Positions 18,374 through 56,415 of a stretch of DNA of 64,000 bases are shown piece after piece. The stretch lies in the NCBI GenBank assembly GCA_965198875.1, contig CBDAPU010000001.1:643146-707145 (forward strand), given 5' to 3'. The stretch comes from Gammaproteobacteria bacterium. Lineage in GTDB: Bacteria > Pseudomonadota > Gammaproteobacteria > Eutrophobiales > Eutrophobiaceae. A model generated the notes under the pieces. That model had not been told where the DNA came from, did no database searches, and saw only the letters and a program-made list of their open reading frames with translations. Both the position numbers and the translations under genes were made by a program. The stretch's first letter is position 1; each line of letters begins with the position of its first letter.

Positions 18374-18547
18374 ACTTATTCTGGTTCGCAATGGTTTGGC
18401 AGCGATTGATCCTGACCGACCGAGCCCCATCCACAAGGATCTTTCCGATCCGGGATGGTTGCCTTGGGACAATCTGAATAGCGCCTTTCTCAATGCACGC
18501 TCAGGGCGATATGATCAGATGAGTATTTATGTGGATTGCCAATGCTA
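18362..18547 (+). pseudogene. possible remnant of a cas8c N-terminus (speculative)
   Basis: 61-codon ORF MLNELILVRNGL... sits immediately after the orphan cas5c, where cas8c would lie. It has weak resemblance to the M-I/L-L-x-L-x-x-Y pattern at Cas8c N-termini. Confidence 0.15.
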
Positions 18548-18604
18548 AGGTGGCGGCATTTCTATCAATACCTGTCGCTTCAAACAGCTTTCAAAGGCTG
18601 AACT

Positions 18605-23822: not shown

Positions 23823-23825
23823 ACC

Positions 23826-24749
23826 ATGAGCCTGAACCATAAAATAGACTTTGCCATTATCTTAAACGTGACTAATGCCAACCCCAATGGCGACCCGCTG
23901 AGCGACAATCGCCCCAGAACCGACTACGACGGTTACGGCGAAATATCCGATGTCTGCCTGAAGCGCAAACTGCGCGACCGACTGCAAGAGCAGGGGCAGG
24001 CAATATTCGTGCAATCGGATGAAAAGAAAACGGACGGCATGACCAGCCTGCAAAATCGTGCCTACTCAGATGAATTTGGTTTGGGTAAAGACACCTTTAA
24101 TTCGAGGAAAACCAGCCCGGATGACACAGCGCGAAAAGCCTGTGATAAATGGTTCGATGTCAGAGCCTTTGGGCAATTATTTGCGTGGGGTAAGGAAAAA
24201 GGCAACTCAGCTTCAGGTGTCTCAATACCCATTAGAGGGCCAGTGACCATTCAATCGGCATTCAGCACTGTGCCAATTAGTATCACCAGTTCTCAGATTA
24301 CAAAAAGTGTCAATGCACAAGAGCCCAAGAATAAAAAAAGCGCAAATACAGAAGAGTCCGATGAAAATGGAAACAGTGATATGAGCTCAGATCGAATGGG
24401 TATGAAACACCGGGTTGATAAGGCCGTTTATGTCGCCTATGGCGCAATGACGCCGCAACTGGCGAAAAAAACCCACTTTAGCGATACCGATGCAGACCGC
24501 ATCAAGGCGTTATTACCCAGACTATTTGAAGGCGATGCCTCCTCGGCCCGACCTGAAGGCTCCATGAGCGTGGACAAGCTGATCTGGTGGCAACACAACT
24601 GCAAATCCGGCCAGTACTCATCCGCAAAGGTACATAATACCTTGAAGGAACACATCAAAGCCAAAGGACGGTTAGACACATCCAGCCTGAAACAGGCACT
24701 CAGCGACAAGTTCAGTGATTTATCCCCTGAAATCATAGAAGGCTTTTGA
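23826..24749 (+). CDS. cas7: Cas7c (Csd2) backbone protein (module 1)
   Basis: N-terminus NANPNGDP...DVCLKRKLRD is typical of Csd2. Confidence 0.85.
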   Translation: MSLNHKIDFAIILNVTNANPNGDPLSDNRPRTDYDGYGEISDVCLKRKLRDRLQEQGQAIFVQSDEKKTDGMTSLQNRAYSDEFGLGKDTFNSRKTSPDDTARKACDKWFDVRAFGQLFAWGKEKGNSASGVSIPIRGPVTIQSAFSTVPISITSSQITKSVNAQEPKNKKSANTEESDENGNSDMSSDRMGMKHRVDKAVYVAYGAMTPQLAKKTHFSDTDADRIKALLPRLFEGDASSARPEGSMSVDKLIWWQHNCKSGQYSSAKVHNTLKEHIKAKGRLDTSSLKQALSDKFSDLSPEIIEGF

Positions 24750-24897
24750 TCTATAGTGTGATACCAGTCCTTTCCGGATAAATGAGCAGGGCTAAATCGC
24801 CTGATAGAATCGATAAACACAATGGTCAAGGCAGCAAACAGGATGGGGTAATGAATGCGATGAGGCGTCAACCTATAATGCCGCTTATGCACAGATT

Positions 24898-27207
24898 ATG
24901 ATGTCACTGGAAGGCAATTTAAGGACCCAATGCAACATGAAGATTGCACATGCAAAAAAAGACCATGCTGGAAAATGGTGTGAGCATGAATTAAGCCAGC
25001 ATCTGCAAAAAGTGGGTATTCTGTCTTCCACGTTTTCCAGCCATTTTGACAGCGGCGATTGGGCAAAAGCGGCAGGCGATTGGCACGACCTCGGTAAATA
25101 CCGCCCCCGGTTCCAAAATTATATACGCGATAAGTCCGGCTATGAGCGAGAAAATGCCCATGTAGAAACCACAGATCGCCCACGGCATTCTACCGCTGGC
25201 GCAATCCACGCCGTAGATCAATGGGGAGATTTTTATGGGCATATCATCGCCTACCTGATCGCCGGCCACCATGCCGGTTTGCCCGACTGGGCAGGCGGCC
25301 GGGGCGGGCTGTCCCACCGCCTGGAGGATACTGAAAGTCAGGATGAATATGAGGAGAGCCTTGAAGCTGCCGACGATTTTCCACTGCTCCATGCCAATAA
25401 GCCCGCATTGCCCGACTTTATTGATTCGCCTTATAAGTTCGCGTTATGGATGCGAATGATGTTTTCTTCGCTGGTGGATGCCGATTTTCTTGATACCGAG
25501 CAATTTATGGATCCATCAAGAACATTACAGCGAGGTGGCCGGGCGTCGTTCAATGAATTGCAGCAGCGCTTTGATGTCAAGATGGCGGAGTTAAAGACTG
25601 GCGCGGCGTCTTCACCCATGGCGATCATACGCAATGAGATACAACAGCAATGTCTCAAGGCGGCGGACTGGCGCCCCGGTCTCTTCAGCCTGACGGTACC
25701 GACGGGCGGCGGCAAAACACTGTCCAGTTTGGCGTTTGCGTTAAAACATGCCCGTATCTTCAATAAGCAAAGAATTATCTACGCTATCCCCTTTACCAGC
25801 ATTATCGAGCAGAACGCCGATGTTTTTCGTGATTTTCTTGGCGGCGATGATGCCGTACTGGAGCACCACAGCAATCTGGATGTGAGCGAGCAAAAAGAAA
25901 ACAGCCGCTCCAGGCTGGCCTCAGAAAACTGGGATGCACCAGTTGTCGTCACCACTAATGTCCAGTTGTTTGAGTCACTGCATGCAACGCGAACCAGCCG
26001 CTGCCGCAAGTTACACAACCTTGCCAACAGCATTATTATTCTGGATGAAGCACAGCAATTACCACGGGATTTTCATGCGCCCATTACGAAGGTCATGCAG
26101 CAGTTGGCGGATCATTACGGCGTGACCTGGGTCTTATGTACGGCCACTCAGCCCGTATTAACCGAGCAGCGCAGTGCTTTTAACCAGCTTCTCATGCAGG
26201 GGCTTAACCATGTCCGCGAGATTATCCAGCAGCCGGAAAGACTGGCGAAAAAACTGAACGCAAGAGTGCATGTGCAACTACCCGACCTCGGTGAACCGCC
26301 GCTATCCTGGACGGATTTGGCGGAAAAGCTGAGCGATGAAGAAGCCGTCTTGTGCATTGTCAATACCCGCCCGCAGGCACGGGAGTTATATGGACTCCTG
26401 CAAGATAAAGAGAATAGCGTACATCTTTCCGCGCAAATGTGCGCCGAGCATCGCTCCACATTGATCGAGCAGATGAAACAGCGCCTGCAAGCGAGAGTGG
26501 CCGGTGACAAGCGCCCGATACGGGTGATCAGTACGCAACTCATCGAAGCCGGTGTGGATGTCGATTTTCCGCTTGTCTACCGCGCCACGGCCGGGCTGGA
26601 TTCCATTGCCCAATCAGCAGGCCGCTGTAATCGGGAAAGTAACCTTGACGAACCGGGCAAGGTGATTGTTTTCAAGCCGGAAAAATCCAGCTTTGGGTTT
26701 TTGAGGCAGGCGGAAGATGCAACGCTTGAATTGTTGGCATGTGGACAACTGGATGAACCGCTATCACCTACGAGTTTTACCCGCTTTTTTAGACTGCTTA
26801 ACAGCAAAGGCAAACCAGACAAGCACGGCATTCTGGAATTGCTGCGTGCAAAGTGCTCTCGCGATGCACCCCTGGAAATTTATTTCAGAGAAGCTGCGGC
26901 CAAATTTCGCTTAATTGACGATAACGGCGTGTCGATTATCGTGCCCTATGTCCCTTTTGAGAAAAAAGCAAGTCCGATTCATGCGTGGTTGGCGCTGTTG
27001 GAAGAGGATGCGTCCAGAAAATGGGTTTATCGCAAGTTGCAACGCTATACGGTCACTCTGCCAGAATGGCAAGCAAACCAATTAGCTGAGTCGGGTTGTA
27101 TCGATACGGTAGCGGGGCTGCGGGTATTGCAGGACGGTTTCTATCATCCAGACCTAGGCATTTATACGCCTGATCTACAATTGTCGGGGCAGGAGTCCGT
27201 GCTATGA
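24898..27207 (+). CDS. cas3: Cas3 HD nuclease-helicase (module 2); probable start at 24937
   Basis: HD motifs (HDLGKY, AGHHAGL), TVPTGGGKT, DEAQ, and QSAGRCNR. Confidence 0.9.
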   Translation: MMSLEGNLRTQCNMKIAHAKKDHAGKWCEHELSQHLQKVGILSSTFSSHFDSGDWAKAAGDWHDLGKYRPRFQNYIRDKSGYERENAHVETTDRPRHSTAGAIHAVDQWGDFYGHIIAYLIAGHHAGLPDWAGGRGGLSHRLEDTESQDEYEESLEAADDFPLLHANKPALPDFIDSPYKFALWMRMMFSSLVDADFLDTEQFMDPSRTLQRGGRASFNELQQRFDVKMAELKTGAASSPMAIIRNEIQQQCLKAADWRPGLFSLTVPTGGGKTLSSLAFALKHARIFNKQRIIYAIPFTSIIEQNADVFRDFLGGDDAVLEHHSNLDVSEQKENSRSRLASENWDAPVVVTTNVQLFESLHATRTSRCRKLHNLANSIIILDEAQQLPRDFHAPITKVMQQLADHYGVTWVLCTATQPVLTEQRSAFNQLLMQGLNHVREIIQQPERLAKKLNARVHVQLPDLGEPPLSWTDLAEKLSDEEAVLCIVNTRPQARELYGLLQDKENSVHLSAQMCAEHRSTLIEQMKQRLQARVAGDKRPIRVISTQLIEAGVDVDFPLVYRATAGLDSIAQSAGRCNRESNLDEPGKVIVFKPEKSSFGFLRQAEDATLELLACGQLDEPLSPTSFTRFFRLLNSKGKPDKHGILELLRAKCSRDAPLEIYFREAAAKFRLIDDNGVSIIVPYVPFEKKASPIHAWLALLEEDASRKWVYRKLQRYTVTLPEWQANQLAESGCIDTVAGLRVLQDGFYHPDLGIYTPDLQLSGQESVL

Positions 27208-27428
27208 AAAACCATTGTTTCAATCCACATTCTGATGAACGAATTATTGATATTAACAATCCATTGAAATCGGATTCTATTGTGTAACCCATATCGCAAT
27301 GTTCATTTTCGAAAAATCTGTTTTGAAATGGTTCGCCTTTGTATTGAGAAAATGATGGCGCTGTTGATATCGATCCTGCGACACTTTACGCCTATGCCCA
27401 ACATCATCAAGAAAGGAAATAACACAAC

Positions 27429-28166
27429 ATGCCCAGCGAAGAACAATTTTGCCTGGAAGTCAGCGGCGACTTCGCCTGTTTTACCCGCCCGGAAATGAAG
27501 GTGGAGCGGGTGTCCTATGACGTGATAACGCCATCGGCGGCGCGGGGCATTTTTGAGGCCATTCTCTGGAAGCCCGCCATCCGCTGGCAGGTCGAGAAAA
27601 TTGAGGTGCTGAAACCCATCAAATGGGTCAGCATACGGCGCAATGAAATCGATTCGGTTTTAGCTGAGAGTAATATCAAAAAAGCGATGAAGGGCGGCGC
27701 TATGCCCGCCTTGTATATCGACGAAATTAAGCCAGATGGAAAACTGAAACATAGACAGCAACGCGCCGGTTTGTTTTTGCGCGACTTGGCCTATCGGCTT
27801 TATGCCCGTTTTCAGCTTCAGGATGACAGCGCTCATCAGCATCGTTTTCCACACCTGCACTGTGACGATGCGCCTTGTGAAAACAGCTATCCCAAGTTTG
27901 CCGACATGTTCAAGCGCCGTGCCCGCAAGGGTCAGTGTTTTAACCAGCCCTACCTGGGCACCCGGGAGTTTTCCGCCAGCTTCCGCTATATCGAGCCAGG
28001 CCATACAACGGAGGCACCTATCAAAGAAGACCGCGACCTGAGCTGGATGCTGTATGACATGGATTACAACAAGCCCGAAGACCCGCAACCCCTGTTTTTC
28101 AATGCCGTAATGGAAAATGGCATCGTCCGGGTTCCCGACAGAGAAAGCGGCGAGGTACGGGGATGA
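27429..28166 (+). CDS. cas5: Cas5c (module 2)
   Basis: YDVITPSAARGIFEAILWKP and KGQCFNQPYLGTREF are Cas5d-family motifs. Confidence 0.85.
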   Translation: MPSEEQFCLEVSGDFACFTRPEMKVERVSYDVITPSAARGIFEAILWKPAIRWQVEKIEVLKPIKWVSIRRNEIDSVLAESNIKKAMKGGAMPALYIDEIKPDGKLKHRQQRAGLFLRDLAYRLYARFQLQDDSAHQHRFPHLHCDDAPCENSYPKFADMFKRRARKGQCFNQPYLGTREFSASFRYIEPGHTTEAPIKEDRDLSWMLYDMDYNKPEDPQPLFFNAVMENGIVRVPDRESGEVRG

Positions 28167-29947
28167 TTTTACAATCACTGGTGGAATACTATGAGCGCAA
28201 CAAAACAAATCTTCCCAAGTTTGGGTTTTCGGATGTAGAAATTCCGTATTTAATTGTAATTGATCAGAACGGAAAGTTTATTGCCTTGCAAAGCACCAAG
28301 GAAAAGCAAGGCAAAAAAGAAAAAGCTCAAACTTATACGGTTCCCAGCCTGCCAAAAACGAGGAAAGCCAGTGTTGATATTGTGTCTCAAGGAAAAACGG
28401 CCGGAGTTTGCTGGGATCATTTTGGCTACCTTACCGGTCAGGCTAAACTGGACAAGAAATCTAATTCATACCTTCCAAAAGATATTGAATTAGCCGAAGC
28501 GCAAATGCAGGGTTTTAAATGCAAAATCGCAATGCTAAAAGAAGCACTGCCGAGTGTGGTTGAGCTAGAGGCGATACAGAAGTTTTATCTAAACGATGAG
28601 AACATGGAACAGTTGCGCGCTTCTGAAGAGTGGCCAAATTTAATAAAAAAAGATGGGCAATCCGTAGCATTTCGGTTAGCGGGCTCTGACCGATTGGCAT
28701 GTCAATCTGAAGAAGTTATTAACTATCTGCTTTCAAATATGGAGGAAGAAGAGGATGGTTTCTGCTTGGTAAAGGGCATTGAGTCTGAAATAGCCAGAAC
28801 ACATGAAGCAATCAAGTATATTGGCGGAACTAACCCTAAACTTGTTTCGTTTAATGAAAAGGCGTTCGAGTCCTATGGAAAAAAACAAAGTTTCAACTCA
28901 CCAATAAGTGCGCGCGCATCGTTTGAATACAGTACGGCACTAAACCATATGCTCAAGGACACCTCTCAAAACAAATTTAAAGTAGCGAGCAACGAATTTG
29001 TCTGCTGGTCGGAGCGTGGTTCAGCGTTGGAAGAATGGATGCCCGTCTTTATGAGTACAGATGACACCGAAGCAGGTATCAATGCCGTGGAAGGCTTGTT
29101 TGACAGCATCCACAATGGAGCCTATCAAAAGCCCGATGGCAAGGACCGCTTTTACTTGCTGGGGCTGGCCCCCAATTCTGCCCGCATCATGGTGCGCTTC
29201 TGGCAGGTGGGAACCGTTGCCCAGTTCTCTGAAAATATCGCCAAATGGTTTAAAGATATTGAGATTGATGGCGTGGAAAAATTTGGTTATCCACCACTCA
29301 AAGAATTGCTCAGCTCAACAGCACTGCAAGGCGAGGACGACAAAGTGCCGCCCAACCTGCCTGGCGCGGTAGTAACGGCCATCCTCAACGGCACACCTTT
29401 GCCTGATAGCTTAATGCAAGGGGTTATTCGTCGCATAAAAGCCGAGGCCGCCGTAAAGAAAGACAAAAAGACCAATAAACCGGTAGAGAATGTTTCACCC
29501 AACCGCGCCGCCTTGATCAAGGCGTGTTTGAACCGCCAGATTCGTCAATCACAACTATCATTAACGGAGCTTGCTATGGCACTTGATTTGAACAACACCG
29601 ATACCTCCTATGTGCTCGGCCGATGGTTCGCCACCCTGGAAAAAATACAGGAAGAATCACACCCGGGCATCAATGCAACCATTAAAGACCGCTATTACGG
29701 CGCGATCAGCAGCAATCCGGTCAACGTGTTTGGCATTCTTGATCGGCTCAAGAATCATCATTTAGCCAAACTTGAAAAAGGTCAACGCATCAACAAGGAA
29801 AGGCTGCTGGGCGAGATTGTCGGCAAGCTGCCTGCCCGGCTGCCCAATCGGCTGTCGTTATCGGAACAAGGCAGTTTTGCGGTTGGCTACTACCACCAGC
29901 GCCAGCACCTCTACCCCCAAGAAAAATCTGACCAGCCAACTTCTTAA
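28163..29947 (+). CDS. cas8c: Cas8c large subunit (module 2)
   Basis: 594-aa protein in the canonical position, with a C-terminal MALDLNNT...GRWFATLEKIQ region. Confidence 0.8.
   Translation: MILQSLVEYYERNKTNLPKFGFSDVEIPYLIVIDQNGKFIALQSTKEKQGKKEKAQTYTVPSLPKTRKASVDIVSQGKTAGVCWDHFGYLTGQAKLDKKSNSYLPKDIELAEAQMQGFKCKIAMLKEALPSVVELEAIQKFYLNDENMEQLRASEEWPNLIKKDGQSVAFRLAGSDRLACQSEEVINYLLSNMEEEEDGFCLVKGIESEIARTHEAIKYIGGTNPKLVSFNEKAFESYGKKQSFNSPISARASFEYSTALNHMLKDTSQNKFKVASNEFVCWSERGSALEEWMPVFMSTDDTEAGINAVEGLFDSIHNGAYQKPDGKDRFYLLGLAPNSARIMVRFWQVGTVAQFSENIAKWFKDIEIDGVEKFGYPPLKELLSSTALQGEDDKVPPNLPGAVVTAILNGTPLPDSLMQGVIRRIKAEAAVKKDKKTNKPVENVSPNRAALIKACLNRQIRQSQLSLTELAMALDLNNTDTSYVLGRWFATLEKIQEESHPGINATIKDRYYGAISSNPVNVFGILDRLKNHHLAKLEKGQRINKERLLGEIVGKLPARLPNRLSLSEQGSFAVGYYHQRQHLYPQEKSDQPTS
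29576..29947 (+). CDS. cas11: candidate nested cas11c (module 2)
   Basis: Internal in-frame ATG at 29576 with GGAG 8 nt upstream, encoding a 123-aa C-terminal helical domain. Confidence 0.35.
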   Translation: MALDLNNTDTSYVLGRWFATLEKIQEESHPGINATIKDRYYGAISSNPVNVFGILDRLKNHHLAKLEKGQRINKERLLGEIVGKLPARLPNRLSLSEQGSFAVGYYHQRQHLYPQEKSDQPTS

Positions 29948-29960
29948 ATCACCTACCTGA

Positions 29961-30833
29961 ATGAGGAGAAAAAACATGAGCCTGAATAACCGCTACGATT
30001 TTGTGTATCTGTTTGATGTCAAAGACGGCAACCCCAACGGCGACCCGGATGCGGGCAATATGCCGCGTGTCGACCCGGAAACCGGGCAGGGGTTAGTAAC
30101 TGATGTCTGCCTGAAACGCAAGGTGCGTAACTTTGTGGAAATGACCCAGGCGGACACGCCGAGACACAATATTTTTATTCGGGAGAAAGCCGTTCTTAAT
30201 AATCTGATTGCGGAGGCACACGAGCAGGAAGACGTTAAAGACAAGGAAAAAGGCGCGAGAACTGCCGCTGCGAGAGACTGGATGTGCGAGCAGTATTATG
30301 ACATTCGAGCCTTTGGCGCGGTCATGAGTACGGGAGTGAATGCCGGGCAGGTGCGCGGCCCCATCCAAATCACCTTCTCGCGCTCCATTGATCCCATCTT
30401 TGCCCAGGAGCATTCCATCACCCGCATGGCCGTTGCAACTGAGGCGGAAGCAGAAAAACAATCCGGGGACAATCGCACCATGGGACGCAAGGCAACCGTG
30501 CCCTATGGCCTGTATCGCTGCCACGGGTTTATTTCAGCACACCTGGCCGCCCAAACTGGCTTTGACGATGATGATTTAACATTATTCTGGCAGGCGTTAG
30601 GCAATATGTTTGATCACGACCGCTCCGCCGCACGCGGCGAAATGACCGCTCGCGGTCTCTATGTTTTCAAGCACGACAGCAAGCTGGGCAATGCCCAGGC
30701 CCACGCCCTTTTTGACCGCATCACAGTTTCCAGAGTAGCAGACGAAGCGCCCCGAGCGTTTACCGACTACCGGATTTCCGTCAACGAAGATGATATGCCC
30801 GCAGGCGTCCAACTGATCACTGAGTTCGCATAG
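29961..30833 (+). CDS. cas7: Cas7c (Csd2) (module 2); probable start at 29976
   Basis: MSLNNRYDF...GNPNGDP...[10 protein letters not shown]. Confidence 0.85.
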
Positions 30834-30983
30834 CCTAGGGAGCCTCTGATTAATGTCTGCGAGGCAGTTAGTGCAAGGCAAAAATCAGCGAAAAAGCGCA
30901 GTTTATAGGCCATAAATGAGCATTTTGAGCTGATTTTTAACGCAGCAATAACAACGTAGGTAATTAATCAGAGGTTCCCTAGG
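30834..30983. repeat. MITE-like element: 21-bp inverted repeats (20 of 21 match) at 30834-30854 and 30963-30983 flanking a 108-bp core, between cas7 and cas4
   Basis: CCTAGGGAGCCTCTGATTAAT on one side and ATTAATCAGAGGTTCCCTAGG on the other, read directly from the sequence. Confidence 0.5.
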
Positions 30984-31003
30984 TTAAGTATTGATCACCC
31001 GAA

Positions 31004-31666
31004 ATGCCGCCCGCCTCAGGGAAAAACAACCGCTGGTTTAGCGATAAGGATGATATGGACGACTACCTGCCCCTCTCCGCCCTGCAACACTGCGCCTATT
31101 GCCCGCGCCAGTTTGCGCTGATCCATGTTGAACGGGCCTGGGCGGAAAACCGCTTCACCGCCGAGGGACGTATTCTGCACGAGCGGGTGGATTCGGGCGG
31201 GCGGGAACAGCGCGGCACCTTGCGTTACGAGCGCAGTGTCCAGTTGGTTTCCGAGCGCTATCGCATCCAGGGCAAAATGGACTTGCTGGAAATCGAGTGC
31301 ACCGAGCCGCCGCGTTATTTCCCCGTTGAATACAAACGCGGCAAGCCCAAGCTGGAAGACTGGGACAAAATACAACTCTGCGCCCAGGCGCTCTGTATTG
31401 AGGAGATGAAAAACACGCAGGTGACGGAAGGCGCTATCTGGTACTGGCAGGTGCGGCGGCGCGAGGCCGTGGCGCTGGACGACAGCCTTCGACAGGCCAC
31501 GCTCAGCACCATCGAACAAGCCGCCAAGATCCTCGCCAGTGGCCGCACCCCGCCACCCATCAACAACAAGAAACTGTGTCGCGCCTGCTCCCTGGTCGAC
31601 CTCTGCCAGCCACACGCCTTCCGGCAGGACTGGTCGGCGCGCTATATGGCGCAGTTGGGCGAATGA
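31004..31666 (+). CDS. cas4: Cas4 RecB-like nuclease with Fe-S cluster (possible start at 31055)
   Basis: N-terminal Cys (HCAYCPRQF) and the C-terminal CRACSLVDLC cluster cysteines. Confidence 0.85.
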   Translation: MPPASGKNNRWFSDKDDMDDYLPLSALQHCAYCPRQFALIHVERAWAENRFTAEGRILHERVDSGGREQRGTLRYERSVQLVSERYRIQGKMDLLEIECTEPPRYFPVEYKRGKPKLEDWDKIQLCAQALCIEEMKNTQVTEGAIWYWQVRRREAVALDDSLRQATLSTIEQAAKILASGRTPPPINNKKLCRACSLVDLCQPHAFRQDWSARYMAQLGE

Positions 31667-32679
31667 AAAAACTGCTCAATACCCTCTACATCACCCGCCA
31701 GGAAAGCTATCTGCACAAGGAGCGGGAAACCATCGTCATCAAACAGGGCGATGAAAAACTGGGACAGTTTCCGGCGATCAATATCGCCAATATTCTCTGC
31801 TTTGGCCAGGTCTCGGTATCGCCGTTTTTAATGGGCTACTGTGCCGAAAACAACATCGGCCTGAGCTTTTATACCGAATATGGCCGTTATCTGGCCCGCG
31901 TGGCAGGCAAACCGGTGGGCAATGTGTTGTTGCGAAGAGCGCAGTATCGCTGGGCGGATAATGAGGCGCAGTGCAATGCCATTGCCCGCCTGATGGTTGC
32001 GGCAAAAATCGCCAACAGTCGCCAGGTGCTGCAACGGGAAATACGCAACCACGGACAGAACCCGAGCCTGACCGAGGCCATCGACAAACTTTCCGTCAGT
32101 TGCCGCTGGGCCAAACAGGCCGGACGTGTCGACGAAGCCCGAGGTATGGAAGGCGAAGCGGCGGCGGTGTATTTCGGCGTCTTTCACGAACTGGTGCGCA
32201 GGCCGGAATTTACCTTTGCCGGTCGGGTTCGTCGCCCGCCGACGGACCCGGTCAATGCCCTGCTGTCGTTCACTTACTCACTGATCACGCAAGAATGCAT
32301 CTCCGCACTGGTCGGTGTCGGGCTCGACCCCTACGTCGGCTTTCTCCACAAAGACCGCCCCGGGCGGGCCAGCCTGGCGCTGGATTTACTGGAGGAGTTC
32401 AGAGCACCCTGGGCGGATCGTTTTGTACTGACGCTGATCAACCGCAACCAACTGGCTTTACAGGATTTTGTCACCGAAGCGGGCGGCGCGGTGCGTCTCG
32501 CTGATGAGGCCAGAAAGCAATTTCTCGCCGCCTACCAGGAGCGCAAGCAGGTGGAGATCATGCACCCTTACTTAAAAGAGTCGATTGCCGTCGGCTTGTT
32601 GCCGCATTGTCAGGCGATGCTGTTAGCGCGACACATTCGCGGCGATACAGCATACTACCCACCCTTTCTGGCCAAATGA
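31663..32679 (+). CDS. cas1: Cas1 integrase (the ORF-track start at 31576 is probably too long)
   Basis: MKKLLNTLYITRQESYL is a typical Cas1 N-terminus. ATGA overlap with the cas4 stop. Confidence 0.9.
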   Translation: MKKLLNTLYITRQESYLHKERETIVIKQGDEKLGQFPAINIANILCFGQVSVSPFLMGYCAENNIGLSFYTEYGRYLARVAGKPVGNVLLRRAQYRWADNEAQCNAIARLMVAAKIANSRQVLQREIRNHGQNPSLTEAIDKLSVSCRWAKQAGRVDEARGMEGEAAAVYFGVFHELVRRPEFTFAGRVRRPPTDPVNALLSFTYSLITQECISALVGVGLDPYVGFLHKDRPGRASLALDLLEEFRAPWADRFVLTLINRNQLALQDFVTEAGGAVRLADEARKQFLAAYQERKQVEIMHPYLKESIAVGLLPHCQAMLLARHIRGDTAYYPPFLAK

Positions 32680-32972
32680 TGCTGGTTCTGGTCACCTATG
32701 ACGTCAGTGTGATTTCTGCAGGCGGGCAGCGGCGCCTTCGGAACATTGCCAAAGTATGCCTTGACTATGGCGTGCGCGTGCAGAACTCCGTCTTCGAATG
32801 CGAAGTGGAACCGGCGCAGTTCACCGCCTTCAAAGCTGAACTGGAAGCGCTGTATAATCCGGCGGAGGACAGCCTGCGCTTTTATTTTTTGGGCAAAAAC
32901 GGCAGACAACGAGTCGAACACCTGGGCGCCAAAGCCGTCGCTGATCCCCTGCGGGACAAACTGATTCTGTAA
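32676..32972 (+). CDS. cas2: Cas2
   Basis: MMLVLVTYDVS is a typical Cas2 start. ATGA overlap with the cas1 stop. Confidence 0.85.
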   Translation: MMLVLVTYDVSVISAGGQRRLRNIAKVCLDYGVRVQNSVFECEVEPAQFTAFKAELEALYNPAEDSLRFYFLGKNGRQRVEHLGAKAVADPLRDKLIL

Positions 32973-33149: not shown

Positions 33150-34667
33150 GTCGCGCCCCTCGCGGGCGCGTGGATTGAAACGGATTGATTAAAGAATGGT
33201 GGGGGGGCATAGACTGTCGCGCCCCTCGCGGGCGCGTGGATTGAAACTTAGACAAGATCACAAACCCAACACCAATCGGCGGTCGCGCCCCTCGCGGGCG
33301 CGTGGATTGAAACCCCATCCACCTGCACCACCAGAATTGCCTAAATGAGTCGCGCCCCTCGCGGGCGCGTGGATTGAAACCCCCAGTCAAGGCTATTTGC
33401 ATGACTGGATAACCGTCGCGCCCCTCGCGGGCGCGTGGATTGAAACAGATTAAAAGTTTCGGCGACAGATCCGGGCTGGAGTCGCGCCCCTCGCGGGCGC
33501 GTGGATTGAAACTGATCGTGAGCAAAAGGATATGCCTGAAATCATCGTCGCGCCCCTCGCGGGCGCGTGGATTGAAACCTGCAAAACATTTAATGGCTTA
33601 TATGCTGATAGGCTGTCGCGCCCCTCGCGGGCGCGTGGATTGAAACTTATCTCCTCTTGGTTAATGTTTATTTTCTTCGGTCGCGCCCCTCGCGGGCGCG
33701 TGGATTGAAACATCCTTGTTTATGATTTCAGGAACCCATTCTGAAAGTCGCGCCCCTCGCGGGCGCGTGGATTGAAACAATAAGAGTTATGGCGCAGTCT
33801 GGCATCGGTTTAAGTCGCGCCCCTCGCGGGCGCGTGGATTGAAACCGTCACTACAGGCGTTAATGACTTTCTGCAACTAGTCGCGCCCCTCGCGGGCGCG
33901 TGGATTGAAACAATCGTGCGCTTCATGGACGGCCATAATCTCGACGGTCGCGCCCCTCGCGGGCGCGTGGATTGAAACCCCCAGTCAAGGCTATTTGCAT
34001 GACTGGATAACCGTCGCGCCCCTCGCGGGCGCGTGGATTGAAACCATCAAGGCAACTGGGAGTTATTGCGGGCAACGGGTCGCGCCCCTCGCGGGCGCGT
34101 GGATTGAAACGCTATCCGAGCAGGCCATAAATCCTAAGAGCAAAGTCGCGCCCCTCGCGGGCGCGTGGATTGAAACAATCCAGTTGTCAATCGACCTGTC
34201 GCAGAAAACCGTCGCGCCCCTCGCGGGCGCGTGGATTGAAACAGGGAAGGATCGCTGGCTAAACACTTGAAGAGAAGTCGCGCCCCTCGCGGGCGCGTGG
34301 ATTGAAACACTTTTGATCAGTTTTAAAACAAAAAAAAGCAGTGTCGCGCCCCTCGCGGGCGCGTGGATTGAAACAATCGTGCGCTTCATGGACGGCCATA
34401 ATCTCGACGGTCGCGCCCCTCGCGGGCGCGTGGATTGAAACCCTCGCGGGCGCGTGGATTGAAACAATCGCCCTTAATTCAACTGTTCTCAACATATCTA
34501 TAGGTCGCGCCCCTCGCGGGCGCGTGGATTGAAACTTAACACTAACCTTATGAGCAGGTCGCCGCAGTCGTCGCGCCCCTCGCGGGCGCGTGGATTGAAA
34601 CTGCTCTCGGACTCTCAATCTGTCAACATCCTCCTGTCGCGCCCCTCGCGGGCGCGTGGATTGAAAC
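33150..34667 (+). CRISPR. Type I-C CRISPR array: 23 copies of the 32-bp repeat GTCGCGCCCCTCGCGGGCGCGTGGATTGAAAC plus one 24-nt truncated repeat
   Basis: Repeats begin at 33150, 33216, 33282, 33349, 33415, 33481, 33547, 33615, 33680, 33747, 33814, 33880, 33947, 34013, 34079, 34145, 34211, 34277, 34343, 34410, 34504, 34570 and 34636. The partial repeat is at 34442-34465. Spacers are 33-38 bp. Spacer 4 equals spacer 13, and spacer 12 equals spacer 19. Confidence 0.97.
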
Positions 34668-37536
34668 TTGAACCGGCAACAGCGCCCCGGCGGCTACCTG
34701 TACCGGTCGGGCGGTGCGGCGACCGCCACCGCCACCGGGCACTGAGCCGGACAGACGTTGATTGACCACGGTGTTGACCGTAGTGGACAGCGCCCCCACT
34801 GAGGCCTCCTGGGCGGCCGGGCCGGTGGGGTCGACAAAGAGATAGGCGTTCACCTCGGCCGGGGCGTCGCCTGCGGCATTCAGTGGCGTTATCTCACCCC
34901 CATAGGTGCGGGAGAGCTCGGCGGCTATCTGCACGTTATCGGCCGGTGGGGGTGGGGTCGGGGTGGCTGTGTCGGTGTCCGTATCTGTACCACCTGCACC
35001 TGCACTGCTGTCGGGTTGTCCGCCGCCCATCATATCAGCGTCACCGTCGGCGCCGTCCGTGCCATCGGCGCCGCCCATAGCGTCAGGGTCGGGCATGCCT
35101 TGTGATGGGTCATCCACATAGGCGATGAGGGTTCTCATCGCCCCCGTTGTCTCGATCTCTTCCATCCGGATCACCGGCAGGTTGGCCAGGAGCGCATCCT
35201 CTCCATTGACTACCTCAAAGTTGGTGTAGCGGAAGATTGTCGTGGCGGAGGGGTCGGTGAAGATATTCAAGCCATCCAGGGTGTCCATGCCCGCCCCGCC
35301 ATCGGCCAGACCCATGAAGCGCACATCGGCGCTGGCGAAGGTGAGAGTATCATCGCCTTCACCCAAGTTAATATCGCCGGTGATGCTGGCGTTGCCCTCC
35401 AGGGTGATCTCATCATTCCCCGCCCCGGTGTCGATGTCGCCCATGACAGAACCGCCCATGTTGATGTTGATGGCGTCATCACCGCCACCGCCGTCAAGGT
35501 TGCCGTTAAAGGCGGTGGCGATGGTGAAGGCGTCCGTTAAGTCGCCGCCGATGAGGTTCTCAATGCCGGTGAAGCCGCCGCCGATGAGGGTGTTGCCCGC
35601 ACCGTCCGCTAACTGCCCGCTGTTATTGCCCGTGAGGGTGAAGGTGTTGCCGTCATTATCACCTTGCAGGGTGTCATCTCCCATCCCGCCCTCAAGGTTG
35701 CCGGTGATCTCGCCCGCATCCTCAAAGGTGAAGGTATCATCACCCTCTCCGCCTGAGATCGAGTCCATTTGTGCATTGATGATGAAGGCGTCATCGCCGG
35801 CCTCGCCTTCGGCTGATCTGACCTCGGCATTGATGTTGAAGACGTCATTGCCTGCGCCGCCGGCAGCAAACAAATTAATGTTCGCCACGTTGATGTTGAA
35901 GGTATCCACCCCACTGCCGCCGATGAGGTCATCAAAGCCGCTGAAGGTGAGGGTATCGGCCTGCCCGGCGCGCATCACCGCGTAGGTGTTGTTTGCGTCC
36001 AGGGTCCAGGTGGCGGTGGTGTTATCGCCTCGAAGTTGATTGACGTTGTTTGCATCGGCCGTGAGCCGATCGATGTCGAAAAAGCCACCGGTGATCCCCG
36101 TTGCCAGGCCACTGAAACCATCCGCATCATTGCCGGTCACGGTGATGATGATCTCCTCTGTGCTGGCGCTGTAGATAAGGTGATCAGCGCCCGCCCCGCC
36201 GATGATGTCGCCGGTGATGCTGGCGGTATCCGCTAAGGTGAAGGTATCCGCATCATCGCCGCCACCGCCAAGAACATCGCCCGTTACAGCACCGCCCATG
36301 TTGATGTTGATGCGGTCGTTGCCGTCTCCGCCAGCAACATTGCCCATGAGTGTTTCGGCAATATTGAAGGTGTCCGCCCCATCGCCGCCAACAACATTGC
36401 CCATGAGGGTGGCATTGATGGTGAAGGTATCCATCCCGCCACCGCCGTCAAGATCCCCGCTGTGGTCGGCAGTGATGGTGAAGGTGTCCATCATGTTGCC
36501 GCCACTCAAGTTCTCAATGCCAGTGAAGGCGCCGCCGATTTTGTCCATCAGCGTACCCTCGCCATTGCCCGTGAGGGTGAAGGTGTTGCCGTCATCATCG
36601 CCTTGCAGGGTATCCGTGCCCATCCCGCCGTCCAGGTTGCCGGTGAGACTGCCGGCATCTTCAAAGGTGAAGGTATCCGCTCCGGCCCCGCCGGTGAGGT
36701 TTTCGATGCCAGTGAAGCCGGGGATGTTGGGGTCGGTCAGGGGGCCGACCACGGGGTTACCCAGGCGGTCCGTCAACTGCCCCTCGTTCATGCCGGTGAG
36801 GGTAAACCGGCCGCCCGTGTCGGCGGCAATCAGGGCGTCATTGCCCGCACCGCCTATCAGTACGCTAAGTACGGAAGCGGCTGCCATAGTACCGAACTTG
36901 CCATCCGGGCCCAGGGTGAAGGCGTCATCACCATCGCCGCCTACGACCAAGAAGGCTTCGGCATTGATGTTGATCTCATCATTACCGCCGCCGCCATTAA
37001 CAGTAGACCGCATAGTTTGAGCGTTGATGTTGATGGTGTCGACTCCATCGCCGCCGGTGAATTGTCCAAAGGTAGCGAACGCCAGGCTGTGCCCGCCCGC
37101 CACGTAGGTGTTACCCGCCATCTCCAGGCTCCAGGTGGCGGCGGTGTTGTAGCCCATCAATATGGCGCTAATTCTGCCAGTTAGCTGATCGACGCCGGTA
37201 AAGCCGCCGGTGATGGCCGTTGCCGTGCCGCTAAAGCCGTCCGCATCGCCGGCGGTTAAGTTGATGTTGATAAAGCCTGTCCTCGCGCTGTAGTCGAGGT
37301 GGTCATTGCCTGCGCCGCCGTTGAGGCTGCCGGTGATCTCGCCGCCGTCTTCAAAGGTGAAGGTATCATCACCGGCGGCACCGGCAACATCGCCGTTGAT
37401 CGGGGTGTCGATGGTGCGGTTTACGGCTTGCGCCTGCTGCGCCTGCAGGCCCGGGCTACTCAGGGCGGTGATGAGCGCGAGGCAGAGGCAAAGCAGGGGT
37501 TGACATGGTTGGCGAATTATGCGGGGGGGGGGGCAT
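34623..37536 (-). CDS. large RTX-like (GGxGxD Ca-binding repeat) secreted protein. The open frame 34623..37160 continues upstream to an ATG at 37536 only if the G11 tract changes length, so the gene is either phase-variable or a pseudogene.
   Basis: Dozens of GGAGxD(T/A)(F/L) repeats. In the same frame upstream of 37160 a signal-peptide-like segment (PLLCLCLALITALSSPGLQAQQAQA) is encoded, with no start codon. ATGs at 37536 and 37557 are out of frame by +1, across a homopolymer. Confidence 0.6.
37523..37533. repeat. homopolymeric G11 tract (C11 on the coding strand) immediately after the ATG of the RTX-like gene
   Basis: Read directly from the sequence. With 10 G (or 13 G) the ATG at 37536 joins the long ORF. 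With 11 G it does not. Confidence 0.9.
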
Positions 37537-38214
37537 ATTACCGGCGGTGTTCGTCATGGTGCTGATCCTCCTGTTGCGTGCAAGTGAGATGGACATGCTG
37601 TGTTACTGCTCTTCGCTGGTTTTGGGGCGGGCATGGGCTCGGCATTTGCCTGCGCTTGTCCGGCCTGATTATTCGCCCTGTTAGCGGCGCACAGTGTAGC
37701 AGAAGTGAAGGCGGGCTAAAACCTTTCATCCGAGAGGGCGGACGGCGCCTTTATCGCCCCACTTCCTCAGGGGTTCCCCGGCGATGGCATGGTGTTATCT
37801 GTGCCGATATGGGCGGCTTCCTGAGACATCTCAACGGCGGGCACAGGCCATAAAGCAACGGCAAAGCGGCGCGCCGCACTCGCTGAGAGGCCGACATTGG
37901 CGCTACCGAGGCGAGCGCATCGCCACCGCCCGTTTATCTTTGATGAAGAGGGCGTTTTCAGGGCGATGGGGGCGGTTGGTTAAAGAGCAGCGAACAGGGC
38001 GCCATTCGCCCGTTATCGTCACCCGGATCCGCATATTTTTGACCAATCCACCGCCGATCATGACGGATTATTTTATCTAACAGCTTGTTTTATAAGGCTA
38101 ATTACATTTTTTTCGTGTTTTAATAAAAAAAATAGCAAATATTTGTTGCATCGCACAATCGTCCAGGTTATGATGCGCCGCAACATAAACAAACCAACAG
38201 GAGAGCGACAGATC

Positions 38215-38559
38215 ATGAACGCACAAGTGGAGAAGTATTTTGAACCGGTGAAGCAGTTGAACGCCCTGGCTATCGAGAACGTTGAGAAGTTCATCGACGT
38301 GCAGCTAAAGGCGTTAAAAGACAACACCAAGATCGGCGTTGAGCAATTAAAATCAGCCAGCGAGATCAAAGATGTTGAAGGCTTGAAGACCTATCTCACC
38401 AACCAGGCCGAGATCGCCAAAACGGTGAGCGAGCGTTTCGTGAAAGACGCCCAAACCGCCATTGAGCTGGGCACAAGCTACAGCAATGAGGTGCAAAACG
38501 TCATCAACGACGCCATCAACACTTCAACCACGAAGACGGCGACGCAAAAGAAAGGGTAA
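38215..38559 (+). CDS. phasin-family protein (PHA granule-associated)
   Basis: Sequence MNAQVEKYFEPVKQLNALAIENVEKFIDVQLKAL is typical of phasins. phaC lies elsewhere in the window. Confidence 0.7.
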   Translation: MNAQVEKYFEPVKQLNALAIENVEKFIDVQLKALKDNTKIGVEQLKSASEIKDVEGLKTYLTNQAEIAKTVSERFVKDAQTAIELGTSYSNEVQNVINDAINTSTTKTATQKKG

Positions 38560-48714: not shown

Positions 48715-50508
48715 CTACACTCTGACTTTGACATAGGAGCCCGGGGCGTCTTCTATGACGGCCTGCCCATGATCACCGGGCCACCGTGCCGTCACCTGCT
48801 CGCCGGCATAGGGCTCCAGCCATTCCTGCCAGTCGGGCCACCAGGAACCTTCATGACTTTCGCACTGCTCGCGCCATTCACCGGCAGAGAGATGCGCTAT
48901 ATCCGGCCCGGTAAAATAACCGTATTTACTGGATTGCGGTGAATTGATAATACCGGCGATGTGTCCGGATCTGCCCAGCACAAACCTCACCGGAGCGCAC
49001 AGCAGTCGGGCGCCCAGATACGTGCTCTCCCAGGGCGCAATATGATCATCTTCCGTGGAGATAAAATAGGCGGGCGTTCGGATAGTGGACACATCAATGG
49101 GCACGCCATTCACCACCAACCCACCCGGTTCCTTAAACGTATTTTGCAGATACATGGTGCGTAAATACGTGCTGTGCATTTTTGCCGGCATGCGGGTTGC
49201 ATCGGCATTCCAGTACAACAGGTCAAAGGCAAAGGGTTCTTTGCCTAATAAATAGTTATGTACATAAAAAGACCAGATCAAATCGTTGGCGCGCAGCATA
49301 TTAAACGTGGCCGCCATCTCCTTGCCATCATGATAGCCCTTATCGCTCATGTCTTTTTCGAGCTTCTCCAGTTGTTGCTCATCAATAAAGACGCCCAGAT
49401 CGCCCGGGATAGAGAAATCGATTAGTGAAACAAAAAAAGTGGCCGATGCAATACGCGCATCGCCCATCTCCTGCATGTACGCCAAAGTGGCGGCCAGTAA
49501 CGTACCGCCAATGCAGTAACCCACGATGTTCATTTTGTCCTCACCCGTGGCGGCCTCTACCACATCAATAGCCGCCAGCGCACCTTCCGTCACATAATGT
49601 TCAAAATCCTTATGGGCAAGCCGCTCATCCGGGTTCACCCAGGAGATCACGAAAACAGTGTGGCCCTGATCCACCAGCCATTTGATCAGCGAGTTTTTCG
49701 GTTGCAGATCGAGGATGTAGTATTTATTGATCCAGGGCGGCATGATGAGTACCGGTCGCCTGAACACACCCTCTGTGGATGGCGCATATTGAATCAGTTG
49801 CAGCAAGTCATTCTGGAATATGACTTTACCCACACTCACCGCAATATTTTTCCCTAGCTGAAATGCCTCGGGATCGGTCATGGTGATCCGTAATTGGCCG
49901 GATTCGGCGTCAAAATCGTGGATGAAATTTTGCAGGCCCTGCAACAGGTTCTCGCCGTTGGAGTCCAGTGTCGCACCTAATATCTCCGGGTTAGTCAGCA
50001 AAAAGTTCGAAGGCGACATGGCGTCAACGAATTGCCGGGTATAAAACTGCGCCTTCTTGGCGGACTGCTGATCCAGCGCCTCGGCCTCAGCGACAACAGA
50101 CTGAATACTGCTGGCGGTGAGCAGATAGGATTGTTTGATAAAATTAAAAAACGGATTGCTATCCCAACCCTCATGTTGAAAACGGCGATCACCTTTGAGC
50201 GGTTTTATGTCATCGTTGACCTGCTCCCCCAGCATTTTCCTGGTCGTGTTAAGCCAAAGGTTGGTGTAGACGCCCCAGGCCTGCATCTGTGCCGCTATGA
50301 GTTTTTCCGGGTTTCGCATTAACGATCCCGTCAGTTGCAGAAAGGACTCACCGACACCCAAAGGATCGAGCTGCTGTTGTCTGCCTTCATCTTGTTGCGA
50401 CAGGAAGCCCGCCAGCAAGTCATGGTACTGACCGGCAATATGAGTGATCACCTCGGTCATTTTCTCAGGGCTGAATGCCTGCTCTTTATTGTGCTCCGAA
50501 TTGCTCAA
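48715..50508 (-). CDS. phaC: class I poly(3-hydroxyalkanoate) synthase
   Basis: Lipase box GYCIGG and about 600 aa with PhaC-wide similarity. Confidence 0.9.
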   Translation of the reverse strand: MSNSEHNKEQAFSPEKMTEVITHIAGQYHDLLAGFLSQQDEGRQQQLDPLGVGESFLQLTGSLMRNPEKLIAAQMQAWGVYTNLWLNTTRKMLGEQVNDDIKPLKGDRRFQHEGWDSNPFFNFIKQSYLLTASSIQSVVAEAEALDQQSAKKAQFYTRQFVDAMSPSNFLLTNPEILGATLDSNGENLLQGLQNFIHDFDAESGQLRITMTDPEAFQLGKNIAVSVGKVIFQNDLLQLIQYAPSTEGVFRRPVLIMPPWINKYYILDLQPKNSLIKWLVDQGHTVFVISWVNPDERLAHKDFEHYVTEGALAAIDVVEAATGEDKMNIVGYCIGGTLLAATLAYMQEMGDARIASATFFVSLIDFSIPGDLGVFIDEQQLEKLEKDMSDKGYHDGKEMAATFNMLRANDLIWSFYVHNYLLGKEPFAFDLLYWNADATRMPAKMHSTYLRTMYLQNTFKEPGGLVVNGVPIDVSTIRTPAYFISTEDDHIAPWESTYLGARLLCAPVRFVLGRSGHIAGIINSPQSSKYGYFTGPDIAHLSAGEWREQCESHEGSWWPDWQEWLEPYAGEQVTARWPGDHGQAVIEDAPGSYVKVRV

Positions 50509-55859: not shown

Positions 55860-55975
55860 GCCAGGCCAGCAACGCATCCCCGTCCATCGCCATCAGCTCC
55901 GCCAGCGCCCAACCGGTATGTGAGGCCAGGGTGATCACCGCCCGTCTTGCATCCTGGGGTCTTAGGACAAAAAAC
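55816..55975 (-). CDS. gpE' extension reached by a programmed -1 frameshift (E+E' tail assembly chaperone)
   Basis: Slippery GGTTTTTTG (heptamer T-TTT-TTG) lies two codons before the E stop. The -1 frame stays open for about 52 codons, to a TGA at 55816. Confidence 0.55.
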
Positions 55976-56403: not shown

Positions 56404-56415
56404 GGTCTTGCCTCC

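What the first reader, a model, noticed from the sequence alone, without database searches (positions are those of the whole stretch)
37160..37557. G11 homopolymer directly after the start codon puts the RTX-like protein gene out of frame: candidate phase-variation switch
The 845-aa open frame (34623..37160) continues upstream, without a start codon, through a signal-peptide-like segment (…PLLCLCLALITALSSPGLQAQQAQA…). The only ATGs, at 37536 and 37557, are in the +1 frame. They are separated from the long frame by a run of 11 G (37523-37533 on the + strand; C11 on the coding strand). With 10 G or 13 G the ATG would be in frame, giving a protein of about 970 aa (MPPPRIIRQPCQPLLCLCLALITAL…). Slipped-strand mispairing at homopolymers is the classic on/off mechanism for surface and secreted proteins. 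A sequencing error in the homopolymer is the alternative.
Basis: seen in the sequence. Interest (0 to 1): 0.65.

Follow-up and report, generated by a model that had tools for sequence, protein, structure and literature searches.

The report
Poly-C frameshift in truncated autotransporter gene
The 11-G run is real and does separate the start codon from the body of a surface-protein (autotransporter) gene, as a phase-variation switch would, but the gene has also lost its whole membrane-anchor domain to a deletion at a CRISPR array, so here the switch sits on a dead gene.

Summary
Observation confirmed. G11 lies at 37523-37533 (C11 on the coding minus strand). It sits 21 nt after an AGGAGG-preceded ATG (37557) and directly before a signal-peptide-like segment. 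C10 or C13 would join the frames; C11 gives a 33-codon dead end. About 0.007 G/C runs this long are expected in the window.

Interpretation partly supported. The gene is not a Pfam-recognisable RTX protein. It is the passenger of a type Va autotransporter family whose closest relatives carry a PF03797 beta-barrel.

Those relatives carry sense-strand poly-C tracts at their 5' ends: C16, C13, C10, C10 and C10. One orthologous site reads C7, C10 and C13 in three related strains. The tract class therefore changes length, as a slipped-strand contingency repeat does.

However, nucleotide homology to the nearest relative stops at about 34670, 3 nt from the terminal repeat of a type I-C CRISPR array. 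At least 840 nt encoding the barrel are missing from the window. Even at C10 the product could not export itself.

Best reading: a vestigial phase-variation tract on a recently truncated pseudogene. An assembly miscall (true C10) in what is probably a long-read MAG cannot be excluded. This is a new member of a known kind, of modest interest.

The parts
37523..37533 (-). Homopolymer: C11 on the coding strand (G11 on +). It encodes PPP(P) in the n-region of the signal peptide and is the frameshift point.
   Evidence: It is the only G/C run longer than 7 in 64 kb.
37567..37572 (-). Shine-Dalgarno AGGAGG, 9 nt upstream of ATG 37557.
   Evidence: Read directly.
37555..37557 (-). Most likely start codon (ATG). 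ATG 37536-34 and ATG 37596-94 are in the same frame.
37456..37557 (-). 33-codon dead-end ORF produced at C11 (MTNTAGNMPPPPHNSPTMSTPALPLPRAHHRPE*).
37440..37522 (-). Signal-peptide-like segment in the passenger frame: (R)IIRQPCQ, then PLLCLCLALITAL, then SSPGLQA. There is no in-frame start codon.
   Evidence: The c-region CGCCCTGAGYAGCCCGGGC is significantly similar to the P0002 loci L007 and L021 (z 4.6-5.8).
34671..37439 (-). Autotransporter passenger domain with Gly/Asp-rich repeats (GGxGxD-type modules) and the linker up to '...AAGALLP'.
   Evidence: Homologues P0002-P0007 and P0010. 86% nt identity to L001 overall, about 95% in the last 370 nt. dN/dS 0.33.
34623..34670 (-). Chimeric ORF tail (VQVSIHAPARGATGGC*). 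Translation runs through the terminal CRISPR repeat and into spacer 22. This is the breakpoint where the beta-barrel is lost.
33150..34667 (+). Type I-C CRISPR array with 23 identical 32-nt repeats (GTCGCGCCCCTCGCGGGCGCGTGGATTGAAAC) plus one partial repeat. The leader is at the cas2 side and the trailer end abuts the truncated gene.
24898..32972 (+). Type I-C cas operon feeding the array: cas3-cas5-cas8c-cas7-cas4-cas1-cas2.

Best explanation
The feature is a hypermutable poly-C tract of the kind that drives slipped-strand phase variation. It sits in the 5' coding region of an autotransporter-family gene, and in this genome that gene is a truncated remnant.

How the switch would work. Translation would start at the SD-preceded ATG 37557, run through the tract as prolines, and continue into the signal peptide and passenger. 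That happens only when the tract is C10 or C13. At C11 it ends after 33 codons.

Why it is a family device. Relatives carry pure poly-C tracts of 7-16 at their 5' ends, and these differ in length between strains.

Why it is vestigial here. A deletion with one end at the trailer of the neighbouring type I-C CRISPR array removed at least 840 nt encoding the beta-barrel translocator. No tract length can restore a self-exporting protein. The frameshift is either the last 'off' state or simply a second lesion.

Shown: the tract and its rarity; the frame relations; the SD; loss of the barrel at the array junction; poly-C tracts in relatives; the C7/C10/C13 polymorphism.

Inferred: slipped-strand switching as the mechanism; that the truncation was one deletion and is recent; that the remnant has no function.
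For: - Tract, ATGs, SD and frames.
- Rarity: about 0.007 expected.
- No competing gene on the plus strand.
- Family identity: the closest homologues P0004, 5, 6, 7 and 10 carry PF03797. The barrel is at P0004 residues 866-1112.
- Truncation: the protein alignment loses homology after AAGALLP. Nucleotide identity to L001 ends at about 34670, while L001 continues for 840 nt. tblastn finds no barrel remnant in the window. The terminal CRISPR repeat is perfect and there is no trailer sequence.
- Family-wide 5' poly-C: L001 C16, L007 C13, L021 C10, L019 C10, L002 C10, L018 C7, L003 C7AC5, L005 C6AC3. All five runs >=10 in 140.7 kb lie on the sense strand at the 5' ends of the autotransporter genes, against none >=9 in 147 kb of control loci.
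- Same-site polymorphism: C7, C10 and C13 with identical flanks.
- Recent function: the ORF stays open for about 950 codons, and dN/dS is 0.33 against L001.
- Precedents: nalP and mspA have poly-C tracts in their coding sequences, with nalP ON at 7, 10 or 13 C (PMC3723659). Campylobacter capC has a promoter tract and capD a coding tract, with lineage-specific decay (PMC7168839). In B. pertussis, tcfA and bapC were the most variable tracts assayed (PMC1891110).
Against: - No read-level or multi-strain data exist for this locus. The species is a singleton in the databases.
- The window is probably from a long-read MAG, where an 11-mer can be miscalled by one base.
- The relatives' tract lengths come from contigs of 3x-12x coverage.
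- Positional homology between the window's tract and the relatives' upstream tract is not demonstrable (z -0.7). In most relatives the tract lies upstream of the annotated start rather than inside the ORF.
- Only 64 kb was searched for the barrel. A periplasmic role for a barrel-less passenger cannot be formally excluded.
Confidence: 0.55

Rival explanations
1. Assembly or consensus error. The true tract is C10, so the 5' end is intact and in frame. The frameshift is an artefact of homopolymer calling in a long-read MAG. The gene would still be 3'-truncated.
For: - The source contig is 2.41 Mb, and its proteins occur once in the database with no isolate names, which is typical of long-read MAGs.
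- Related contigs at 3x-12x coverage each show one or more frameshifts in their autotransporter genes, whereas the 30x contig L008 has none.
- Only one base separates C11 from the in-frame C10.
Against: - Every other long ORF examined in the window is intact. A8 runs at 13691, 40967 and 62791 fall within uninterrupted long ORFs listed, so homopolymers up to 8 are called correctly.
- L018's C7 against L021's C10 and L007's C13 differ by far more than an error.
- If the population is phase-variable, no single 'true' length exists.
Confidence: 0.25
2. One reading: a functional, reversibly switched gene for a secreted or surface RTX-like protein, currently in the OFF phase.
For: - Tract position and frame logic.
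- The long ORF is open for about 950 codons.
- The family-level poly-C association and length polymorphism.
Against: - The beta-barrel present in all close homologues is absent, and the ORF ends inside a CRISPR repeat.
- No PF00353 RTX repeats are detected.
- No type I secretion genes are among the neighbours, which are cas genes, phasin, Sir2, an EAL response regulator and a Na/Ala symporter.
Confidence: 0.08
3. The tract acts on transcription or on the 5' leader rather than on the reading frame. In relatives it lies 20-380 nt upstream of the annotated start, so its length would tune promoter geometry or leader function. On this view the ATGs in front of it in the window are incidental.
For: - In L001, L007/L018/L021, L002 and L003 the tract precedes the annotated start codon.
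- Campylobacter capC offers a precedent for a promoter tract (PMC7168839).
Against: - In the window no ATG, GTG or TTG exists in the passenger frame downstream of the tract before 37160, well past the signal peptide.
- A perfect SD plus ATG lies upstream in a frame that C10 would join.
- No sigma-70-like promoter was found in 37300-38300.
- In four independent 5' regions an ATG-initiated ORF reads into the tract.
Confidence: 0.07
4. Recoding. C11 is the 'correct' genomic state, and the full-length frame is reached by +1 slippage of tRNA-Pro on CCC-C during a polyproline stall, or by RNA polymerase slippage on the C run.
For: - Going from the ATG frame to the passenger frame needs exactly a +1 shift inside CCC CCC CCC CC.
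- tRNA-Pro is the classic +1-prone tRNA on CCC-N, restrained by m1G37 and EF-P (PMC7577736 and PMC4519876, found).
- The window, L001 and the L007/L018/L021 group are all one C longer than the fused phase.
Against: - L019 is in the fused phase at its observed length.
- L001 and L021 have their own start codons after the tract, so they need no recoding.
- Three loci sharing a phase has a chance probability of only about 1/27 to 1/9.
- No stimulatory element was identified.
- The gene is truncated anyway.
Confidence: 0.05

Closest known systems
Neisseria meningitidis autotransporters NalP and MspA (poly-C tract in the coding sequence)
   Same: An autotransporter gene with a poly-cytosine tract inside the coding sequence, whose length sets the frame. 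ON lengths are spaced by three (nalP is ON at 7, 10 or 13 C; PMC3723659). Here the ON lengths would be C10 or C13.
   Different: The passenger is unrelated: Gly/Asp-rich repeats rather than a subtilisin-like protease. The host is an uncultured gammaproteobacterium, with its nearest ArgG at 84-85% identity. No expression or switching data exist. The beta-barrel is deleted here.
Campylobacter capC/capD autotransporter families
   Same: Within one autotransporter family, some members carry the G/C tract upstream of the start (capC) and others inside the coding sequence (capD). Many copies are decaying independently of tract length (PMC7168839). The window's family shows the same mix.
   Different: The organisms and passengers differ. 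Here decay is by a deletion ending at a CRISPR array rather than by point frameshifts or stop codons.
Bordetella pertussis tcfA and bapC homopolymeric tracts
   Same: Autotransporter genes carried the most variable homopolymeric tracts among the loci assayed; for bapC the tract is stated to lie in the coding region (PMC1891110).
   Different: Variation there was measured experimentally in isolates. Here it is only inferred, from three related metagenomic strains at a paralogous locus.
Neisseria pilC (poly-G in the signal-peptide-coding region; recalled from my own knowledge, not checked here)
   Same: A homopolymer placed within the signal-peptide-coding part of the gene, so that frame changes abolish export and synthesis together.
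   Different: PilC is a pilus-associated protein, not an autotransporter. The strand and base differ.
RTX (repeats-in-toxin) type I secretion substrates
   Same: Gly/Asp-rich GGxGxD-like motifs. Many distant database hits carry PF00353.
   Different: The window protein has no PF00353 hit even at E<=5. The nearest relatives end in an autotransporter barrel rather than a T1SS signal. No T1SS genes are nearby.

Membership tests
Classical (type Va) autotransporter | N-terminal Sec signal peptide in frame with a start codon | tested here: not met
   A signal-peptide-like segment is present at 37440-37522. It has no in-frame ATG, GTG or TTG, and is joined to ATG 37557 only at C10 or C13.
Classical (type Va) autotransporter | Passenger domain homologous to passengers of bona fide autotransporters | tested here: met
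   E-values of 1e-162 to 1e-109 to P0004, P0005, P0006, P0007 and P0010, all of which carry PF03797. 86% nt identity to L001.
Classical (type Va) autotransporter | C-terminal beta-barrel translocator (PF03797) | tested here: not met
   There is no Pfam hit. Homology ends before P0004 residue 866, where the barrel starts. tblastn finds no barrel in the 64 kb.
Simple-sequence-repeat contingency (phase-variable) locus | Homopolymer well above the background length for the genome | tested here: met
   C11, against a next-longest G/C run of 7. About 0.007 are expected.
Simple-sequence-repeat contingency (phase-variable) locus | Repeat placed so that unit changes switch expression (5' coding region or promoter) | tested here: met
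   The tract lies 21 nt after the SD-preceded ATG. Simulated lengths alternate between a fused ORF and short ORFs.
Simple-sequence-repeat contingency (phase-variable) locus | Tract length varies between strains or within populations | tested here: inconclusive
   No second genome or reads exist for this locus. At a relative's orthologous site the lengths are C7, C10 and C13 with identical flanks.
Simple-sequence-repeat contingency (phase-variable) locus | The ON state yields a functional product | tested here: not met
   The ON-phase product would lack the translocator and would end in CRISPR-repeat-encoded residues.
Simple-sequence-repeat contingency (phase-variable) locus | High-frequency reversible switching | not testable with these tools
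   This needs single-colony amplicon sequencing or deep reads.
RTX / type I secretion substrate | PF00353 nonapeptide Ca-binding repeats | tested here: not met
   No hit at E<=5.
RTX / type I secretion substrate | Linked T1SS ABC transporter, MFP and TolC genes, and a C-terminal secretion signal | tested here: not met
   The neighbours are cas genes, phasin, Sir2, an EAL response regulator and a Na/Ala symporter. The C-terminus is chimeric with a CRISPR repeat.
Programmed +1 frameshift / transcriptional slippage gene | Out-of-frame arrangement conserved among homologues, with a slippery site | tested here: inconclusive
   The slippery CCC-C run is present. Three locus types sit at 'fused +1' but L019 is in frame, and relatives have their own starts.

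The most novel reading that the evidence does not exclude
In this family of autotransporters from uncultured environmental Gammaproteobacteria, the 5' poly-C tract may be translated as part of a short leader ORF. Tract length, and possibly +1 slippage of tRNA-Pro on the CCC run, would then set a three-way relation between leader and main gene:
- in-frame fusion;
- a leader stop codon overlapping the main start (ATGA in L021, TGATG in L001);
- a leader that over-runs and occludes the main start.

The C7, C10 and C13 lengths at one site, all in the same phase, would reflect selection on frame rather than on spacing. The window copy would be a derivative in which only the fusion state can express the gene.
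Probability: 0.12. Interest if true: 0.55.

Novelty: new member of a known kind. Interest (0 to 1): 0.3.

Why it matters
Taken as reported, this would be one more homopolymer-switched autotransporter. That class is well documented in Neisseria, Campylobacter and Bordetella, so it is not new in kind.

Two points add modest value. First, the tract is a trait of a whole, previously undescribed autotransporter family in uncultured Gammaproteobacteria, which suggests contingency loci outside the usual host-adapted pathogens. Second, the locus is a warning for annotation: a tidy 'phase-OFF' frameshift can sit on a gene that is already dead from an unrelated lesion, here a deletion ending exactly at a CRISPR array's terminal repeat. 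Tract-based phasome predictions should therefore check that the rest of the gene is intact.

Tried and rejected
- Barrel displaced by insertion of the CRISPR-cas island: tblastn of P0004 against the window finds only the passenger, so a deletion is more likely than a simple insertion.
- Self-targeting spacer causing a Cas3 deletion: no spacer matches the window or any family locus beyond 12-17-nt chance hits.
- Alternative in-frame starts after the tract: no ATG, GTG or TTG. Only ATA and ATT at 37520-37515, with no SD. Rejected as unlikely.
- A gene on the plus strand across the tract: the ORFs of 59-91 aa have no Pfam hits.
- Positional homology of the window tract with the relatives' upstream tract: MAFFT suggested collinearity. 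A local alignment against shuffles is not significant upstream of the LSSPG codons. The claim is dropped.
- Finding the source genome or other strains: exact-protein look-ups were empty, the cluster has one member, and the genome-contig scan returned only a related MAG.
- The metagenome-contig scan returned only 28-39%-identical generic repeat proteins.
- The Rfam scan of the window found nothing, and the sigma-70 promoter scan of 37300-38300 found none.
- Systematic +1 overcalling of poly-C as an explanation for the shared phase: L019 is in frame at its observed length, and L018's C7 is too short to be error-prone.
Full report
**1. The observation**

On the minus strand the sequence reads ...caacAGGAGGatcagcaccATGacgaacaccgccggtaatATG-C11-gcataattcgcc....

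- The run of eleven C occupies 37533-37523 (G11 on the plus strand).
- ATG 37557, ATG 37536 and a further ATG 37596 share one frame.
- The long ORF listed as 34623..37160 continues upstream in another frame as ...CPPPRIIRQPCQPLLCLCLALITALSSPGLQAQQAQAVNRT... It has no ATG, GTG or TTG.
- Rebuilding the region with different tract lengths shows that C10 and C13 join ATG 37557 to the long frame. C8, C11 and C14 give a 32-34-codon ORF ending at 37456. C9 and C12 give 12-13 codons.
- AGGAGG at 37572-37567, 9 nt before ATG 37557, marks that codon as the likeliest start.
- G/C runs in the window fall about 0.21-fold per added base: 13 runs of 6, one of 7, none of 8-10. About 0.007 runs of 11 or more are expected.
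- No plus-strand ORF over the tract has any Pfam match.

**2. What the gene is**

Pfam finds nothing in the 966-aa conceptual product, not even RTX repeats at E<=5. A database search returns the product annotated from this genome (P0001, an 832-aa fragment on a 2.41-Mb contig) and a small set of close relatives.

Five of these (P0004, P0005, P0006, P0007, P0010) carry the autotransporter beta-domain PF03797. In P0004 the barrel spans residues 866-1112.

The alignment shows the window protein collinear with them through the conserved block GDINLGEGDDTLTFASADVRF...LLANLPVIRM, the Pro/Thr/Asp-rich spacer and the linker ...NQRLSGSVPGG..RRTARPVQ.AAGALLP. The relatives then continue for about 275 residues of barrel. 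The window reads VQVSIHAPARGATGGC* instead.

The gene is therefore an autotransporter passenger. 'RTX-like' describes only its Gly/Asp-rich composition.

**3. The 3' end**

VSIHAPARGAT is the translation of a CRISPR repeat.

- The window holds a type I-C array at 33150-34667. It has 23 identical copies of GTCGCGCCCCTCGCGGGCGCGTGGATTGAAAC plus one partial copy.
- The array is fed by cas3-cas5-cas8c-cas7-cas4-cas1-cas2 at 24898-32972. The AT-rich leader is on the cas2 side.
- The trailer end therefore faces the autotransporter gene, in convergent orientation.
- Nucleotide identity to the nearest relative (L001, encoding P0004) is 86% over 731 nt and about 95% over the last 370 nt. It stops at window position about 34670, 3 nt from the last repeat. 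L001 continues for another 840 nt.
- tblastn with P0004 finds no barrel remnant anywhere in the 64 kb.
- The terminal repeat is perfect and no trailer sequence follows it.

I infer a deletion that removed the old end of the array together with the 3' end of the gene. A simple insertion of the island is less likely. No spacer matches the window or any family locus, so nothing points to self-targeting as the cause.

The ORF stays open for about 950 codons, and dN/dS against L001 is 0.33 over 235 codons. The gene was under purifying selection until fairly recently.

**4. Is the tract a switch?**

Ten family loci were recovered through exact-protein look-ups and one genome scan: L001-L005, L007, L008, L018, L019 and L021.

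- All five G/C runs of 10 or more in their 140.7 kb are poly-C on the sense strand at the 5' end of the autotransporter gene: L001 C16, L007 C13, L021 C10, L019 C10 and L002 C10. Eleven unrelated loci (147 kb) have no run of 9 or more.
- Paralogues in one MAG share the flank ..TATC(AA)TCTA followed by C10, C7AC5 or C6AC3.
- Most tellingly, three contigs from one metagenome carry the same site with identical flanks, AAATCAATAACTTA-Cn-GAAAAATCAACG...ATGAGTGCG. They read C13, C7 and C10. That difference is far beyond sequencing error, even at 3x-12x coverage.

The tract class is thus a family trait that changes length, as slipped-strand contingency repeats do.

There is direct precedent in other autotransporters:
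- nalP and mspA of N. meningitidis have poly-C tracts in the coding sequence, with nalP ON at 7, 10 or 13 C (PMC3723659).
- Campylobacter capC has its tract upstream of the start and capD inside the coding sequence, with widespread decay independent of tract length (PMC7168839).
- B. pertussis tcfA and bapC carried the most variable tracts among the loci assayed (PMC1891110).

**5. Limits**

- In most relatives the tract lies 20-380 nt upstream of the annotated start. In the window it lies after the only usable ATGs.
- MAFFT suggested the window's 5' region is collinear with L007. A local alignment against shuffled controls supports only the LSSPG codons (z 4.6-5.8) and nothing upstream (z -0.7). 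Whether the window's tract is the same tract is unresolved.
- The species is a singleton. ArgG's nearest non-self relative is 84-85% identical and comes from unnamed Gammaproteobacteria MAGs. No second genome or read set could be reached.
- The window is probably a long-read MAG, so a one-base miscall at an 11-mer is possible. Against that, every other long ORF examined in the window is intact, and several A8 runs fall within uninterrupted long ORFs.

**6. Mechanism and verdict**

Best explanation (0.55): a vestigial translational phase-variation tract on a recently truncated autotransporter pseudogene.

Rivals:
- Assembly error with a true C10; the gene would still be truncated (0.25).
- A transcription- or leader-level role for the tract (0.07).
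- +1 recoding at the polyproline CCC run (0.05). tRNA-Pro is the classic +1 shifter (PMC7577736, PMC4519876). L019 is in frame at its observed length, and the relatives have their own starts.

**7. A loose end worth recording**

In four independent 5' regions an ATG-initiated ORF reads into the tract (window, L001, L019 and the L007/L018/L021 group). In L001 and L021 the three tract phases give, respectively:
- fusion to the main ORF;
- a leader stop overlapping the main start (TGATG, ATGA);
- a leader that over-runs the start.

C7, C10 and C13 are all in the same phase. With so few loci this may be coincidence. It is the most novel reading that the data allow.

**8. Novelty and interest**

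This is a new member of a known kind. The on/off interpretation, however, is overtaken by the loss of the translocator domain. Interest 0.3.

Noticed in passing
window 33150-34667: All 23 full repeats of the CRISPR array are identical, including the terminal one. There is one partial repeat (34442-34465). Two spacers occur twice: 33381-33414 equals 33979-34012, and 33912-33946 equals 34375-34409. These are signs of internal recombination and of a lost trailer end.
   Followed up: partly
window 17708-32972: Two type I-C effector modules lie in tandem. The first is a Cas5-like fragment followed by cas3-cas5-cas8c-cas7 (17708-24749), with no adaptation genes or array of its own. The second is the complete cas3-cas5-cas8c-cas7-cas4-cas1-cas2 (24898-32972).
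   Followed up: no
L007 781-793, L018 5594-5600, L021 1853-1862: The same 5' site, with identical flanks, reads C13, C7 and C10 in three related strains from one metagenome (ERZ25067590). All three lengths are congruent mod 3.
   Followed up: partly
L021 1782-1906; L001 3266-3347: An upstream ATG-initiated leader ORF (MNIGIG... and MNIIEK...) reads through the poly-C tract. Depending on tract phase it fuses to the main ORF, stops overlapping the main start codon (ATGA, TGATG), or over-runs it.
   Followed up: partly
window 34671-35040 versus L001 5995-6359: The last ~370 nt of the passenger are about 95% identical to L001. The 5' halves of the two genes are unrelated, and the window's N-terminus instead resembles P0002 (L007/L021). 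This suggests mosaic recombination among family members.
   Followed up: no
L003, L005, L007, L018, L019, L021: Most family members on low-coverage contigs (3x-12x) are split into two or more ORFs by frameshifts at different positions. The 30x contig L008 and L002 are uninterrupted. The breaks are either sequencing errors in a repetitive gene or frequent decay.
   Followed up: no
L005 5008-5015; L002 2313-2320: There are further G8 runs: one inside an autotransporter passenger coding region (L005) and one about 2 kb upstream of the L002 gene.
   Followed up: no
window 53810-61186: Phage-like genes: a TP901-type tape measure protein and an SPP1 gp7-like minor capsid protein. This is probably a prophage or a remnant of one.
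   Followed up: no
window 38143-38559 and 48715-50508: A phasin gene lies divergent from the autotransporter gene, and a class I PHA synthase lies 10 kb away. The intergenic region at 38100-38135 is strikingly AT-rich (T7 and A8 runs).
   Followed up: no
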